IMG/VR virus record: IMGVR_UViG_2728369105_000001
Location: 1-47,303 of that record
Origin: a virus
Lineage: Duplodnaviria; Heunggongvirae; Uroviricota; Caudoviricetes
Length of the DNA stretch: 47,303 nt
Reading direction: 5' to 3' (one strand)
Of the stretch, positions 39,001 through 45,000 are shown one piece after another; position 1 is the stretch's first letter, and each line of letters starts with the position of its first letter. The position numbers are program-made.

Positions 39001-42000
39001 AAAGAAATCACCAAAGCCCTGGAATCAGCCGAGGGTGAGTATGCAAGCGCACTTCGTTGGGTGCTTGGGGAGGCGGTTTGAATATTGATCATGAGAATTA
39101 CAGCAAATACACCCTACGTCGGTTCGCCGCCTTGTTCGATGTGATCTGTTGGGTGCTTATTGCCGTAGTAACCGTTGGTATCTGCATGTTTATTGAGTGG
39201 TGGGTAGCATGAGCATAGTTGGAGATTATTTCTTTGAGTTCCCTGCGTCTCGCGGCGTTCAGGGCGGAGCGATTGTCCTTATGATGACAGTGCCAGCACG
39301 AACCTTGGCACGCGTCCTCGCCAGTGATAATTACGGGGATACTTTAGAACGTTCACAGCGTGAAATTAATCCAGCGAGAGCTAAGAAATTTTATGAATAC
39401 TTATTGAATGCTCATGAGAATAAAGAGCCATTCATTATCCCACCACTGGTAGGTAATTGTAACTCAGAGATTGAGTTTCAGGAGTTCGGTAATACCAACG
39501 TTGGTGTTGTGCGTTTCCCTATGGATGCAGAAATTAAACTTTTTGACGGACAGCATCGAGCAGCTGGAATCGCAGAGTTTTGCCGCACCGTTGGCGAACC
39601 AATCCACGTGCCATTAATGCTGACTCATAAGCTTTCGCTGAAGACGCGGCAGCAGTTTTTCTCGGACATCAACAACAATGTTTCGAAGCCATCTGCGGCT
39701 ATCAACATGGCCTATAACGGGCGCGATAAGAACGCGCAGGAGATGGTCAGCTTTATCAGTTCACACCACGTCTTTTCTGAAGTAACAGATTTTGAGCATA
39801 ACGTCGTTCCCGCTAAAAGCGAGAAGTGGGTGAGCTTCAAAGCCCTTAGTGATGCCACGGCAAAATTTTCAGGTTCCTGCTCAAAGGATGCTCTTGAAGG
39901 GTTGTGGAATGCGTGGCTAATGCTGACTGGTTTAGATGATATTCGCCAAGGTACGAACCAGGCGGAGTACAAACGCGAATACATCCAGTTCCATGCAGTG
40001 ATGATTAACGCCTTCGGCTACGCGGTGCAGAGGTTAAGCGAAGGCCGGGGAGTTCGCGGGGTCACTCTGATGATTGAGGACCTGGCAATGAATACCGGCA
40101 TTGCCGAACGTGAAGATTTCTTCCTCATTTCATCATGGGATGGTATTTGCGCCAGCTGCGAGAAAACCAGACCAACGGTCATTGCGAATGTTTCATCTCA
40201 GAAAGCTGCAGCATCACGTTTGATGGATGCCATCGTGAATAAAAACTTGTCTGTTAGCCGCGGTAAGGAGGCCAGCCATGACTGATGCCCTGACCAAAGA
40301 AATGATGATTGATGCTATGCGCAGTTCTATTGAGGGCTTCGCCTTCTTAATCATCGATTCGCTGGAGTTTGAACTTAAGCGCCAGCTTACCGACGCTGAA
40401 CAGCAGGAAGTTTCAACAGTTGTTGAGCAGTTGGTTTTAACGTTTCCTGAACCATGCCCGCGCTGTGGTGTAACGTCTACGCGCCCTAATGGTGAGCACT
40501 ATTGCCATGCTAACAGCGTGGAGGCTGAATAAATGACTAATAACCAGTTAACCAGAGAACGTCTGGTAAAAATTAAATCATTGCGTGAAACCTACGGAGC
40601 CGGAAGCAAAGTAATGCTACCAGTTGAAGAAGCCGAGGAGTTGGCATGCATGGCTCTAGCCGCAATGGAAACCGAGCCAGTGGCGTGGAGGTTTCGCAGT
40701 GGCCCGAATGCATGGTGGCAGTTGGCAAGTCGCGGTGATATTGACGGAGAGGTTGAGCCACTCTATCACCACTCGCAGCCAGCGCCGGAACGCGAGCAGG
40801 TGCGCCGCGAGCATGCAGAGTGGTCACAGATCACCTTCGGGAATGTCGGTCCGATTGGCCCGCTGAAACACCTCAGCAAAGAAGCGCAGGAAGCCGCCGC
40901 CGAGCCTGGCGACCTCTCCGAGTGGGCTGATATGCAATTCCTGCTATGGGATGCGCAACGCCGTGCCGGTATCACTGACGAGCAGATTACCCATGCGATG
41001 ATTGAAAAACTGGCGGTGAACAAACTGCGTGAATGGCCGGAGCCGAAAGATGGTGAGCCACAGTTGCACATCAAAGAACAGCCAGCGCCAGTAGTGACCA
41101 AGACGATGCTACAGCCTCGTAAAAAAGTAGACCGCTGCGATGTCTGTACTGAAGGAGCTCGCGGCGGATGTGGAACATGTGCTTTTAGCGGTAATCTTTG
41201 ATGAGGTGACTATGACTAGTAATGATTTTATGGAAGAGAGGGAAGTATTTGACTTGCTCAAAAAGAAAAAAACTGCAGTGTGGAATTTGCGGAAAAATTA
41301 TGGATTCCCCAAGCCAGTTCTCACATATCCAACACGATACAGCAGAGAGGCCGTTTTGAAATGGATAGCATCAGGGGGGGTGAATAAAAGTCAATAGCTC
41401 TCATCATGTAAACACACGGCGCCATTTTAATTGGCGCCTATAAACTGAATGCACGAAAGTTCATGGTAATGGATTTATATAATAATTTTTACGCAAATCA
41501 AATGAAGGATAATTATCTTTAAGATAAGAAATAAACTGCTTAAATGTATACGCGAAGTTCTCCGCCAACCCATCCATATGGCCGTTTACATTCCCATACT
41601 CCTCTTTACTGCCAATGTAATTTAAATAAACATCATTATTCTCCTGTTTCCTAAATATGAATTCGTAATAACTTGAGAAACTATAAATTCTATCTATATA
41701 ATCAACAAACATATCCATGTATTCATTAATTTTTATATCATAAAAAACCCCACCAGGCACTGACTCAGAAAACTCCCTAATTAATGCCAATGTATTGTAC
41801 GCACTCGTCCTTGCTATTTTTACTTGGGATATATAATACGGTAGATTTATAAAAGAGGAATCAATACACATTGCCAAAGATTCTAAACTTTCAATATCTT
41901 TTTCATGGCACCCCTTGGAAACATCATTATAAAAAGGTTTAAAATACCGATCTTTTATTTTTTTATATTGTAATGAATCATGGAAAAAATCACTATAGAA

Positions 42001-45000
42001 GTGAATCTCAAATTCATACTTATTATTACTAGTAAGAACATCCATATTGTTTGATATGTCATTTTGAATCTTTGTTTTCTTTTTTGCTGAAGTAACAAAA
42101 TGATAAACATTAAACTCTACTTTAAGCTCTTTGAGTTTATTAATATCTTTTTGAATAATCTCTATTGTTAAATAACTGTAATTCAAATTCTTACATTGTA
42201 TTACATGTCTTTTACCATCGCTTAATGGCCCAAAGTGAAGTCCATCTATCCCATATTGTTCCTGACCTGGTGTTCCATATGTTGAAAATGTCGTATTATA
42301 TAAAATAGAAAAATAATCAATGACATATCGTTCAAATTCTCTATACTCCGAGAATTGAATAGGTTCAAAATGTGACATTTCCATCCCTCCTATAAAAAAT
42401 TATTGTTTAATTTGACCATTTATCATTTTTTTCACATACCACATAATTTTATCTGCATAAATCTCATAGGCTTCTTTCTGTTCCACCAGCCAATCGTGTT
42501 TGTTATACACCGCCATTACACCTCCCAACTCATGCCCCAGCATCTTTTCGGTCACATGGGGCATAACCCCTTCTCCTGACAAATTGGTAACCAGCGACCG
42601 CCGGAAGTCATGCGTTCGCCATTCTGGTATATCAATTTTACCCCTTAATTTTTTCATATAGAGATTTGCTGACGAGCGATCTATAGGCTTGTCCAGTTCC
42701 TGGCCGGGAAACAGAACATCGTTTCCAGTATTGAGGAGTCTTTCAACAAGAGGTTTCACCTGATCGAACACCGGGCGACGGATAACGTTACCCATCTTGG
42801 AATGCTCTGCTGGAGTCGTCCAGATAAGATCATCCATGTTGAACTCGCTGGCGGTAGCCAGGCGCAGCTCTGATAGCCTAGCACCCCAAAGCAAAAGCAA
42901 TTGATGAAGCACCTTGTTTGAAGTAACGATTTTGTTGTTTTCAAGAGCTAGCCAAATCTTTGCCAGTTCGGTATACGTCAGAACCCGGCTCCCCACATCA
43001 GGTTTTTTACCAATAGTCTTAACGCTAAGCTTCAGGACTTCGCACGATGCGATCAACTGGCGGCTGATACACCAGTTCATTACAGAACGTAGTTGTAGAA
43101 GAAGCACCCTGGCCTTTTTGCTGTTCTTCTTTTCCTGCTTATCAAAGAAACGCACCCATGCAGAAACAGGAATGTTTACTACCGGAGCGTCCGGGAATTC
43201 TGTGTACATAGTGTTGTACACAACTGACTTGTACAGCGTCTGAGTGTTCGGCTTCAGCGTTTCAACATACTTGCTCCACCACTGATCCAGGCACTCTTTG
43301 AGAGTCAGCTCCCCATCTTCTTTAGCGAAATAATTTTTCGGGTTTAGCCCCTTGAGGTACAATTCGCGCATCTCACCGACGACAACGCGTGCCTCCTTGA
43401 GAGACATAGCGGGATAGCGGCCAATGGAGAGGCGAACGGGCTTACCGTTCCAGCGATAACGAAACTGGAATGTGATCGTTCCTGTGGGAGTTATGCGTAC
43501 ACTCAGCCCGTCACCATCTGTGACCTCAGCTGCGCCGCTGTATGGCTTAGCATTGATGCTACGGAGTTTGGTATCACTAAGGGCCACGGCTCTGTATCCT
43601 GTACACACTGAAATTCTGCATTCTGTACTCAATGTGTACGCAATGGCAAGTGAACGAAGTGATTTTCTAAGCGAATCGATGCGAACGGAAAGGAAATAAA
43701 AGGAATGAAATGCTTGATGGTACGGGGAATGATAGGATAACATGCAACACAAGCTGAACGCTTAAAAATCAGTAAGTTCTATGTCCCCTTAGTTAAATGG
43801 ATATAACGAGCCCCTCCTAAGGGCTAATTGCAGGTTCGATTCCTGCAGGGGACACCATCCCGCTGTACACCAACGTCTACCATTGTCTATAAATCCCATG
43901 TAAACATATAAAAATAAAGAGATTTTATTCTCATGACGTCCATTTCCGTCTATTGAAATCAAGTAAATCTATGGGGCATAATTAGGGGCATTGCTGGTTC
44001 GATTGTATATGTGCCCCCAACATGTCCAGAAATACCCTCAACAAATTAACAGACCGTCAGTGCAAAGCAGCTAAGCCACGAGACAAAACTTATAAATTGT
44101 CTGATGGTGGTGGTCTTTATCTTGAAGTATCCCAGACCGGGTCGAAGTATTGGCGAATGAAGTATCGCCGCCCATCAGATAAGAAAGAAGACAGACTTGC
44201 TTTTGGTGTATATCCAACCATTAGCTTACAAGACGCCAGAGAAAAACGAGACAACGCCAAAAAGTTGTTAGTCAAGGGGATAGATCCCAAAGCAGAGCAA
44301 AGAGCAGCAAAAGCAGAAGAAAAAGGCGCATTCACTTTTGAGACAATAGGACGTCAATGGGTTGAAAGCCACCAGATGTGGAACGAAGACCAACGAAAAC
44401 GCGTACTTAGAAGCCTTGAAATGTATATTTTCCCTCACATTGGCACTTCGGATATTCGCAAACTGGAGGCGATGACAATTTTACCTTTGTTTAAGAAGGT
44501 AGATGACGCCGGGAAACACGATACAGCCAACCGACTTAAACAACGAGTTAAGGACATCATACATAGCGCCCGTCTGAGCGGCATTAAGACAGAAATCATC
44601 ACGAATGATCTCGATGTCCGGTTAATGCAATATGAAACTAAGCATCATGCCGCACTACATCCCAGAGATTTACCAGACTTTTTCACTCGATTGGGCAGCT
44701 TTAAAGGTAATCCTCTTACCCGCCTTGCCATTGAGCTAACCATGTTGACATTTGTTCGTTCAAGCGAGTTAAGGTTTGCCCGTTGGAAAGAGTTTGACCT
44801 TGATCGGGCTGAGTGGATTATCCCTAAAAAAAGAGAGCCTATCGATGGTGTGAGGTTTTCCACCCGTGGCACAAAAACGGGAAAAGACGAACATATCGTG
44901 CTTCTTAGCCGTCAGGCTGTTTCTATTGTAAAGCAGTTGAGAGAACTAAGCGGAAGCTACGATGTTGTGTTTCCGAATGAAAGAAACACCAAAGGCGTGA

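What the first reader, a model, noticed from the sequence alone, without database searches (positions are those of the whole stretch)
41461..42384. AT-rich Mrr-type nuclease-fold gene directly downstream of the integrase
A 307-aa ORF with a strong AGGAGG RBS starts 15 nt after the int stop on the same strand, so it may be co-transcribed with int in the lysogen. Its N-terminus resembles the Mrr catalytic domain of restriction-endonuclease-like proteins; the ~200-aa C-terminal region is not recognisable and is Tyr/Asn/Phe-rich. The gene is far more AT-rich than its neighbours, suggesting recent acquisition. The int-xis junction is a common site for prophage defence or exclusion cargo, so this is a candidate single-gene abortive-infection or restriction-like effector.
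Basis: partly seen in the sequence, partly recalled or inferred. Interest (0 to 1): 0.6.

Follow-up and report, generated by a model that had tools for sequence, protein, structure and literature searches.

The report
Stand-alone prophage defence-type nuclease gene
A real, AT-rich 305-aa gene sits in a swappable cargo slot right after a prophage integrase; it joins a nuclease domain of the kind bacterial immune proteins use as their killing module to a small uncharacterised tail, so it is a credible but untested new single-gene anti-phage defence candidate.

Summary
A conserved ORF lies at 41461-42378 on the minus strand; the true start is probably the second ATG, giving 305 aa. It follows the integrase stop by 21 nt behind a strong AGGAGGG, and it is the most AT-rich stretch of the window (28.8% vs 48.4% GC). 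The N-terminal 150 aa is a PD-(D/E)xK/Mrr-type nuclease. The AF2 model (pLDDT 88) shows the core fold, and E16, D45, Q61 and K63 are invariant. The best solved-structure match is the Avs4 effector nuclease. Relatives reach Pfam Mrr_cat and are fused to SAVED, STAND NTPase and ABC-3C sensor modules. The C-terminal 155 aa is an acidic helical domain with no known family. It diverges much faster than the nuclease (42% vs 79% identity) and is one of at least 40 alternative tails. The gene travels alone. It occupies a roughly 1-kb cassette that related prophages fill with unrelated AT-rich genes. Elsewhere it sits beside AbiGi, SIR2-HerA, DRT2 and PDC systems. Best reading: a single-protein sensor-effector defence nuclease in an int-adjacent prophage hotspot. 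Function and trigger are untested. It is a new variant of a known kind, of moderate interest.

The parts
41461..42378 (-). Gene for the 305-aa two-domain protein. Stop TGA is at 41461-41463. An in-frame upstream ATG at 42384 would give 307 aa.
41929..42378 (-). N-terminal Mrr-type PD-(D/E)xK nuclease domain (aa 1-150). Catalytic codons: E16 42331-42333, D45 42244-42246, Q61 42196-42198, K63 42190-42192. Conserved G35-x-x-G38-Q39-x-Q41-x-G43 loop.
41464..41928 (-). C-terminal acidic, mostly helical domain (aa 151-305; helices plus a beta-hairpin at aa 238-254) with no known family. Conserved D161, D214, L/I217, Y290. Putative sensor/regulatory module.
42385..42391 (-). Shine-Dalgarno AGGAGGG, 7 nt upstream of ATG 42378.
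41418..41438 (.). GC-rich hairpin GGCGCCA-ATTAAAA-TGGCGCC, 22 nt after the stop. Candidate terminator closing the int-ORF unit and the converging xis-like gene. The U-tract is weak.
41398..42417 (.). Exchangeable cargo cassette: hairpin, ORF, SD and the last 18 nt of int. Homology to related E. coli prophages stops at 41397 and resumes at 42418.
42400..43587 (-). Tyrosine integrase (Arm-DNA-bind_3 + Phage_integrase). Probable GTG start at 43587 (395 aa). The ORF finder's TTG start at 43752 is probably too long.
43620..43649 (-). Weak sigma-70-like match (TTGCCA-18-CAGAAT, 9/12) upstream of int. Candidate promoter for an int-ORF transcript; this is inference only.
41140..41397 (+). Small HTH (xis/AlpA-like) gene converging on the ORF. 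It is the left conserved anchor of the slot.
43783..43857 (+). tRNA-Arg(CCT). The attR core repeat is at 43788-43806. Its partner at 1014-1032 (attL) bounds the ~42.8-kb prophage.

Best explanation
The gene encodes a stand-alone anti-phage (anti-invader) defence nuclease carried as exchangeable cargo in a small variable slot between the integrase and the xis-like gene of an argW-integrating Klebsiella/E. coli prophage. The N-terminal 150 aa is a catalytically intact Mrr-type PD-(D/E)xK endonuclease. It belongs to the subfamily that serves as the effector module of Avs/STAND, SAVED (Cap4-like) and ABC-3C immune proteins. The C-terminal 155-aa acidic helical domain takes the place of those sensor modules. 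It most likely keeps the nuclease inactive until it binds an infection-specific trigger, probably a phage protein. It then most likely promotes self-association that juxtaposes the nuclease domains, giving indiscriminate or phage-directed DNA cleavage, that is, abortive infection or exclusion of superinfecting phages. In the lysogen the gene is probably transcribed with int and ends at the hairpin at 41418-41438. Shown here: the gene, the fold, the catalytic residues, the modular architecture, the hotspot, the defence-island association and solitary mobility. Inferred: nuclease activity, the sensor role of the C-domain, activation by oligomerisation, co-transcription and the anti-phage phenotype.
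Against: There is no experimental evidence for nuclease activity or for any phage-resistance phenotype. The protein matches no PADLOC, PHROGs or NCBIfam model and misses the Pfam Mrr_cat threshold itself. The C-domain gives only generic four-helix-bundle matches, so its sensor role is argued from position, variability and charge alone. None of the alternative slot occupants is a validated defence gene. Co-transcription with int is inferred, and int expression in lysogens could be low. pTM of 0.52 means the inter-domain arrangement is not reliably predicted, so autoinhibition cannot be read from the model.
Confidence: 0.5

Rival explanations
1. A restriction-type nuclease that recognises foreign DNA directly (type IV-like or structure- or modification-sensing). 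The C-domain would act as a DNA or target reader, and the enzyme would destroy incoming DNA without killing the host.
Against: The C-domain is acidic (median pI 5.3, net -5) and helical, with no resemblance to known modified-base readers. The closest N-domain relatives are effector modules of protein- or nucleotide-sensing immune receptors.
Confidence: 0.2
2. A selfish free-standing homing-type endonuclease whose nuclease activity promotes spread of its own cassette into related prophages, with no benefit to the host.
For: It is a small, AT-rich, optional gene inserted precisely between conserved phage genes, with breakpoints at 41397 and 42418, as with T4 seg/mob genes. One homologue lies near a SegE GIY-YIG gene. 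PD-(D/E)xK homing endonucleases exist (my own knowledge).
Against: Family members sit in entirely different flanks (prophage int slot, Serratia nadC island, Pantoea integrative element, P2-like prophage end, recombinase-trio element) rather than at one cognate target site. There is no recognisable DNA-binding module and the tail is acidic. The same slot is filled by unrelated non-nuclease genes. N-domain relatives are immune effectors.
Confidence: 0.07
3. A toxin: either an addiction or stabilisation toxin of the mobile element, or an antibacterial nuclease effector delivered by a type VI secretion system.
Against: No conserved adjacent immunity or antitoxin ORF of 50 aa or more exists in any context. 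No PAAR, Rhs, MIX or other delivery domain was found. The nuclease is N-terminal, whereas polymorphic toxin domains are C-terminal. The other eight contexts have no T6SS linkage apart from the chromosomal position of argW.
Confidence: 0.06
4. A nuclease used by the phage itself during lytic growth, recombination or excision, for example host-DNA degradation or an accessory recombination directionality function beside int.
Against: Closely related prophages and phages with 94-95% identical int lack it and carry unrelated genes instead, so it is dispensable for the phage. Homologues occur without any integrase or phage, in chromosomal defence islands. No hit was found in 50,697 phage records.
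Confidence: 0.05

Closest known systems
Avs4 (antiviral STAND type 4) N-terminal Mrr-like effector nuclease, PDB 8dgf
   Different: The window protein has no STAND NTPase and no TPR sensor, and is 305 aa instead of about 1500. No sequence-level link to 8dgf was found. The trigger is unknown.
Cap4-type CBASS effectors (endonuclease + SAVED)
   Different: There is no SAVED domain and no CD-NTase gene nearby. The C-domain is a helical bundle, not a CARF-like fold.
Mrr / Mrr_cat (PF04471) type IV restriction endonucleases
   Different: The window protein is below the Pfam gathering score. The nuclease is N-terminal rather than C-terminal. There is no winged-helix DNA-binding domain. An extra invariant G-x-x-GQ-x-Q-x-G loop precedes the catalytic Asp.
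Prophage-encoded anti-phage hotspots (P2/P4 and Vibrio cI-int hotspots; Rousset et al. 2022, PMC9122126)
   Same: It is a small (about 1 kb) locus with high gene turnover between two conserved phage genes, adjacent to the integrase, filled with AT-rich cargo.
   Different: It lies in a different phage lineage (argW-integrating siphovirus-like Klebsiella/E. coli prophages). None of its occupants has yet been validated as a defence system.

Membership tests
PD-(D/E)xK nuclease superfamily, Mrr_cat branch | alpha-beta-beta-beta-alpha-beta core fold | tested here: met
PD-(D/E)xK nuclease superfamily, Mrr_cat branch | Catalytic E ... D ... (E/Q)xK residues on helix 1, strand 2 and strand 3 | tested here: met
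   E16, D45, Q61 and K63 are invariant in 8 close and 32 distant full-length relatives. D and K are invariant, and E and Q are at 90% or more, in 119 further relatives.
PD-(D/E)xK nuclease superfamily, Mrr_cat branch | Pfam PF04471 gathering score reached by the protein itself | tested here: not met
   15.1 bits against a cut-off of 21, E 0.026. It is reached only transitively: 13/32 and 36/119 relatives match at E<=0.01 or 0.001.
PD-(D/E)xK nuclease superfamily, Mrr_cat branch | Mg2+-dependent endonuclease activity | not testable with these tools
   Needs biochemistry.
Mrr-type type IV restriction enzyme | N-terminal winged-helix DNA reader followed by C-terminal Mrr_cat | tested here: not met
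   The nuclease is N-terminal (aa 1-150). The rest is an acidic helical domain with no wH or reader-domain hit.
Avs / bacterial NLR (STAND) immune receptors | Central STAND NTPase plus repeat sensor | tested here: not met
   No NTPase or TPR hit; the protein is 305 aa. Only the effector-domain fold is shared.
Cap4 / CBASS effector | SAVED/CARF sensor domain and a linked CD-NTase gene | tested here: not met
   There is no SAVED hit in the protein. No CD-NTase appears among neighbours in any of 12 contexts.
Prophage defence hotspot (sensu Rousset 2022) | Small locus of high turnover between two conserved phage genes | tested here: met
   There are four unrelated occupants plus divergent alleles between the conserved xis-like gene and int. 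Breakpoints are at 41397 and 42418.
Prophage defence hotspot (sensu Rousset 2022) | Occupants include recognised or validated defence systems | tested here: inconclusive
   The Ec42 and M505 occupants have no Pfam or PADLOC hit. The LV-2017 occupant is only weakly TIR/Nuc_deoxyrib_tr-like (E 9.5e-5 and 8e-4).
Toxin-antitoxin / toxin-immunity pair | Conserved adjacent antitoxin or immunity gene | tested here: not met
   No neighbour ORF of 50 aa or more within 4 kb is shared between independent contexts. Smaller ORFs were not examined.
Known anti-phage systems in PADLOC-DB v2 | Match to any of 5027 defence-protein models | tested here: not met
   The only hit is a noise-level CARF_m5 match, E 0.1.

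The most novel reading that the evidence does not exclude
The protein is a minimal, NTPase-free pattern-recognition nuclease. A ~150-aa acidic helical tail directly binds a phage protein and switches on an Avs4/Cap4-type Mrr nuclease by self-assembly. The family forms a 'one effector, many plug-in sensors' toolkit, with at least 40 unrelated tail families behind the same nuclease domain, spread from Enterobacterales to DPANN archaea. The int-adjacent slot of argW prophages would be an unmined defence hotspot.
Probability: 0.3. Interest if true: 0.65.

Novelty: new variant of a known kind. Interest (0 to 1): 0.45.

Why it matters
If the phenotype is confirmed, this would add an unannotated single-gene defence family. 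It is absent from Pfam for its tail, and from PADLOC, PHROGs, NCBIfam and the PDB. It would show that the effector nuclease of large Avs/CBASS receptors also works with a tiny 150-aa sensor, which is a convenient minimal system for studying trigger recognition and nuclease activation. It also marks a compact, easily anchored hotspot (xis-like gene to int) in common Klebsiella and E. coli prophages. All occupants of that hotspot are uncharacterised AT-rich genes, so it is a practical hunting ground for new defence genes. This is relevant to phage therapy against Klebsiella.

Tried and rejected
- PADLOC, PHROGs and NCBIfam scans of the protein gave nothing usable.
- PDB sequence searches with the close-family profile (A1) and the broad N-domain profile (A4) gave no credible hit.
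- tblastn against 50,697 phage records and 72,556 plasmids found no match.
- A scan of 185,579 species-representative genomes failed. The A2 alignment was too divergent to make patterns, and A1 patterns matched nothing confirmed.
- A C-domain-only profile search in the word-indexed 5.8-billion-protein database returned only family members, so it could not show whether the tail occurs with other N-domains. A local search likewise found none with the tail alone.
- A literature search for six accession numbers found no paper.
- A link between the ORF and the neighbouring DndB/DGQHR-ParB genes (self-protection by modification) was considered and dropped. Alleles occur in prophages with and without DndB.
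- An own promoter inside the cassette was considered. The only minus-strand match (42426..42399, 9/12) straddles the cassette boundary and would start transcription at the SD, so it was not adopted.
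Full report
**1. Observation**

The ORF reported at 41461-42384 (minus strand, 307 aa) is present. On the coding strand the junction reads: int ...AAA CAA TAA (stop 42402-42400), TTTTTTAT, AGGAGGG (42391-42385), ATG (42384), GAA, ATG (42378), TCA CAT....

The 15-nt gap and the strong RBS are therefore real. However, the SD is only 1 nt from the first ATG and 7 nt from the second. Every homologue starts MSHFEP or MSYFEP. I take 42378 as the start, giving 305 aa and a 21-nt gap. 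The stop is TGA at 41463-41461.

Gene GC is 28.8% (GC3 24.5%). The window is 48.4% and int is 47.3% (GC3 52.6%). No other 900-bp stretch of the 47-kb window is as AT-rich, z about -3.4. A GC-rich hairpin, GGCGCCA-ATTAAAA-TGGCGCC, lies 22 nt after the stop at 41418-41438, between the ORF and the converging small HTH gene (41140-41397). Its U-tract is weak, so it is only a candidate terminator.

**2. Setting**

The window holds a ~42.8-kb prophage bounded by a 19-bp direct repeat, CTTAGTTAAATGGATATAA. One copy is at 1014-1032 and the other at 43788-43806, inside the 5' part of tRNA-Arg(CCT) at 43783-43857.

The integrase carries Arm-DNA-bind_3 and Phage_integrase domains. Its probable GTG start is at 43587. 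It is the last prophage gene before attR and is transcribed inwards. The ORF is the next gene on the same strand.

Related prophages in E. coli Ec42 and M505 have 94-95% identical int and tRNA flanks. Their homology stops at 41397 and resumes at 42418, which is 18 nt inside the int 3' end. The same pattern is seen in Escherichia phage vB_EcoS-733R5 and Klebsiella phage 1 LV-2017. The occupants of the slot in these relatives are:

| Genome | Slot occupant | Family hits |
|---|---|---|
| E. coli Ec42 | 437-aa hypothetical | none in Pfam or PADLOC |
| E. coli M505 and phage vB_EcoS-733R5 | 286-aa hypothetical | none in Pfam or PADLOC |
| Klebsiella phage 1 LV-2017 | 280-aa protein | weak TIR (PADLOC E 9.5e-5) and Nuc_deoxyrib_tr (Pfam E 8e-4) |

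All occupants are AT-rich, with GC3 of 24-29% against 52-56% for int. This matches the published definition of a prophage hotspot: a small locus with high turnover between two conserved genes (PMC9122126).

**3. The protein: N-domain**

Pfam gives only a sub-threshold Mrr_cat hit: aa 14-84, E 0.026, 15.1 bits against a cut-off of 21. An exhaustive profile search of 1.84 billion representatives found 1156 relatives at E<=1e-3. Most match only aa ~10-155.

A 32-sequence full-length alignment reaching 17% identity keeps these residues invariant: F15, E16, G35, G38, Q39, Q41, G43, D45, Q61, C62, K63 and T96. The model shows the canonical core fold.

Fold-search results for the N-domain:

| Search | Matches |
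|---|---|
| Foldseek vs PDB | Avs4 8dgf_B first (prob 1.00, E 9.6e-3, 168 columns), then NucS/EndoMS, Cdn1, Can2, EcoT38I |
| Foldseek vs BFVD (viral) | only N-domain-level 'restriction endonuclease' matches |

Thirteen of the 32 full-length relatives and 36 of 119 N-domain-only relatives hit Mrr_cat (best E 4.9e-8). Seven and 20, respectively, hit Mrr_cat_2. The N-terminus is therefore a Mrr-type PD-(D/E)xK nuclease with an intact active site.

**4. What the N-domain is used for elsewhere**

In longer relatives the same domain sits at the N-terminus of several sensor architectures:
- NACHT, NB-ARC, nSTAND3, nSTAND5 and nSTAND6 NTPases with TPR or HEAT repeats;
- TPR-GreAB-C-PIN proteins;
- SAVED domains (13 of 119);
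- ABC-3C CTD11, SMEK_N and VMAP-C.

These are the sensor architectures of Avs/bNLR, CBASS (Cap4-like) and related conflict systems, in which the nuclease is the death or defence effector. 'Mrr' and 'Cap4' are listed among defence-associated effector proteins in PMC13581612. Cap4 is activated by ligand-induced oligomerisation that juxtaposes nuclease active sites (PMC10419184). That portal binding tetramerises Avs4 and activates its Mrr-like nuclease is my own knowledge (Gao et al. 2022).

**5. The protein: C-domain**

The domain is acidic across the family: median pI 5.3 and net charge -5. Few positions are conserved: D161, D214, L/I217 and Y290. It evolves much faster than the nuclease. Against the nearest Klebsiella allele (P0002), identity is 79% in the N-domain and 42% in the C-domain. 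DNA homology between the alleles covers only the nuclease half.

Among 157 proteins, 29 have this tail, 128 have other C-termini, and none has the tail alone. Among 173 proteins with the N-terminal nuclease and a 100-230-aa tail there are 40 tail clusters. One large cluster is a probable remote homologue of ours: hhalign 80.6%, E 1.3e-5, 139 columns. Seven others are unrelated. This is the pattern of a constant effector with interchangeable, rapidly diversifying specificity modules.

**6. Contexts**

The ~99% identical cluster occurs in K. pneumoniae, K. variicola, K. grimontii and a few E. coli drafts. It is always named 'hypothetical'. Alleles P0002 and P0003 (Klebsiella, Raoultella) occupy the same post-int slot, once with an IS630-family transposase next door.

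More divergent members are not next to this integrase:

| Member | Host or source | Neighbourhood |
|---|---|---|
| P0006 | Serratia | between nadC and AbiGi (PADLOC E 9e-43), with a CI-like repressor, a resolvase and a 1050-aa SIR2 protein |
| P0007 | Pantoea | integrative element with Hcp, PDC-M01A/B (E 2e-240 and 1.5e-122) or DRT2 (E 4e-206), and two recombinases |
| P0004 | metagenomic | phage tail and lysis region |
| P0008 | metagenomic | serine-recombinase island with PDC-S33 (E 1e-84) |
| P0019 | metagenomic | end of a P2-like prophage |
| P0158 | metagenomic | recombinase-trio element beside SIR2-HerA (E 7e-164 and 8e-265) |

Three members of the sister tail family lie beside TIR_2 with SIR2_2 and DUF87, beside an ABC-3C system with a PLD nuclease on a mobilisable element, and beside a caspase-like, kinase and helicase cluster.

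No ORF of 50 aa or more within 4 kb is shared between independent contexts, so the gene moves and presumably works alone. No copy was found in deposited phage genomes, in plasmids or in species-representative genomes. It is a rare accessory gene.

**7. Interpretation**

Taken together, the most likely reading is a single-protein sensor-effector defence nuclease carried in a prophage hotspot. It would protect the lysogen, and hence the prophage, against other phages. The evidence for this reading is:
- an intact Mrr/Avs4-type effector nuclease;
- a fast-evolving, swappable, acidic tail in the position of known sensors;
- solitary mobility;
- a turnover slot next to int;
- repeated association with recognised defence systems.

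I give this 0.5. Roughly 0.7 applies to 'defence or exclusion function of some kind', and less to the specific trigger-induced self-assembly mechanism.

The rivals are a direct restriction-type nuclease (0.2), a selfish homing-type endonuclease (0.07), a toxin including a T6SS effector suggested by the Hcp neighbour in Pantoea (0.06), and a nuclease serving the phage's own cycle (0.05). Evidence for and against each is given in the structured fields. Co-transcription with int is plausible: same strand, a 21-nt gap, no convincing promoter of its own, and a hairpin after the stop. It is not shown.

**8. Comparison and novelty**

The protein works like the effector half of Avs4 or Cap4, but it is not a member of either. 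It has no STAND NTPase and no SAVED domain. It belongs to the Mrr_cat branch by fold and catalytic motif, yet it fails the Pfam threshold and has the reverse domain order of Mrr-type type IV enzymes. It matches no PADLOC model.

I rate it a new variant of a known kind: an uncharacterised family with a novel tail, in a hotspot not described for this phage lineage. A defence-type nuclease as prophage cargo next to int is what specialists would expect, and nothing has been tested experimentally, so interest is moderate (0.45).

Noticed in passing
window 1001-1032 and 43783-43857: The prophage is integrated into the 5' part of tRNA-Arg(CCT), not the usual 3' end. The left end keeps the host promoter region plus a 24-nt 5' tRNA fragment (GTCCTCTTAGTTAAATGGATATAA). 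The intact tRNA at the right end has a phage-supplied 5' part with one difference (GTCCCC...), so tRNA expression in the lysogen must depend on phage-borne upstream sequence.
   Followed up: partly
window 44022-47303: A second tyrosine integrase (428 aa, + strand) starts 165 nt after the tRNA 3' end, followed by small HTH genes. The same array in E. coli Ec42 continues into a 'rolling circle replication-associated protein'. It looks like a satellite-like integrative element in tandem, so two mobile elements use the same tRNA gene from opposite ends.
   Followed up: partly
window 38296-41201: The early leftward operon encodes a ParB-HTH protein (38296-39081), a DndB/DGQHR protein (39197-40285, Pfam E 2e-44) and a dATP/dGTP pyrophosphohydrolase (40533-41201, E 9e-40). 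DndB is present in some related prophages and absent in others, independently of the ORF.
   Followed up: partly
window 42400-42417; L025 5672-5700: The cassette breakpoint lies inside the last 18 nt of int, so each cargo brings its own integrase C-terminus (...KIMWYVKKMINGQIKQ here against ...KIFWHIKKLD in Klebsiella phage 1 LV-2017).
   Followed up: partly
L025 4725-5567 (Klebsiella phage 1 LV-2017): The same slot holds an unannotated 280-aa ORF with weak TIR (PADLOC E 9.5e-5) and nucleoside 2-deoxyribosyltransferase (Pfam E 8e-4) similarity. It is another immune-effector-like candidate.
   Followed up: partly
window 901-2300, 4101-5500, 25701-26600: Three further low-GC patches (<38%) lie inside the prophage. 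They contain a 256-aa hydrophobic ORF (1407-2177, -), a 280-aa ORF (4391-5233, +) near the attL end beside the tail-fibre gene, and a 189-aa ORF (25557-26126, -). These are possible additional morons and were not analysed.
   Followed up: no
window 2258-2647 (-): A 129-aa ORF contains an FPSPAADY motif and looks by eye like a UmuD/LexA-type S24 peptidase fragment. This was not tested with any tool.
   Followed up: no
L001 8963-9994: In the Klebsiella prophage carrying allele P0002, an IS630-family (DDE_3) transposase is inserted immediately downstream of the gene, so the slot is also a landing site for insertion sequences.
   Followed up: no
window 41673-41702 (+): A near-consensus sigma-70 promoter match (TTGAGA-18-TATAAT, 11/12) lies antisense inside the gene. 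It is probably a by-product of AT-richness, but it could drive antisense transcription or mark an H-NS-type silencing target.
   Followed up: no
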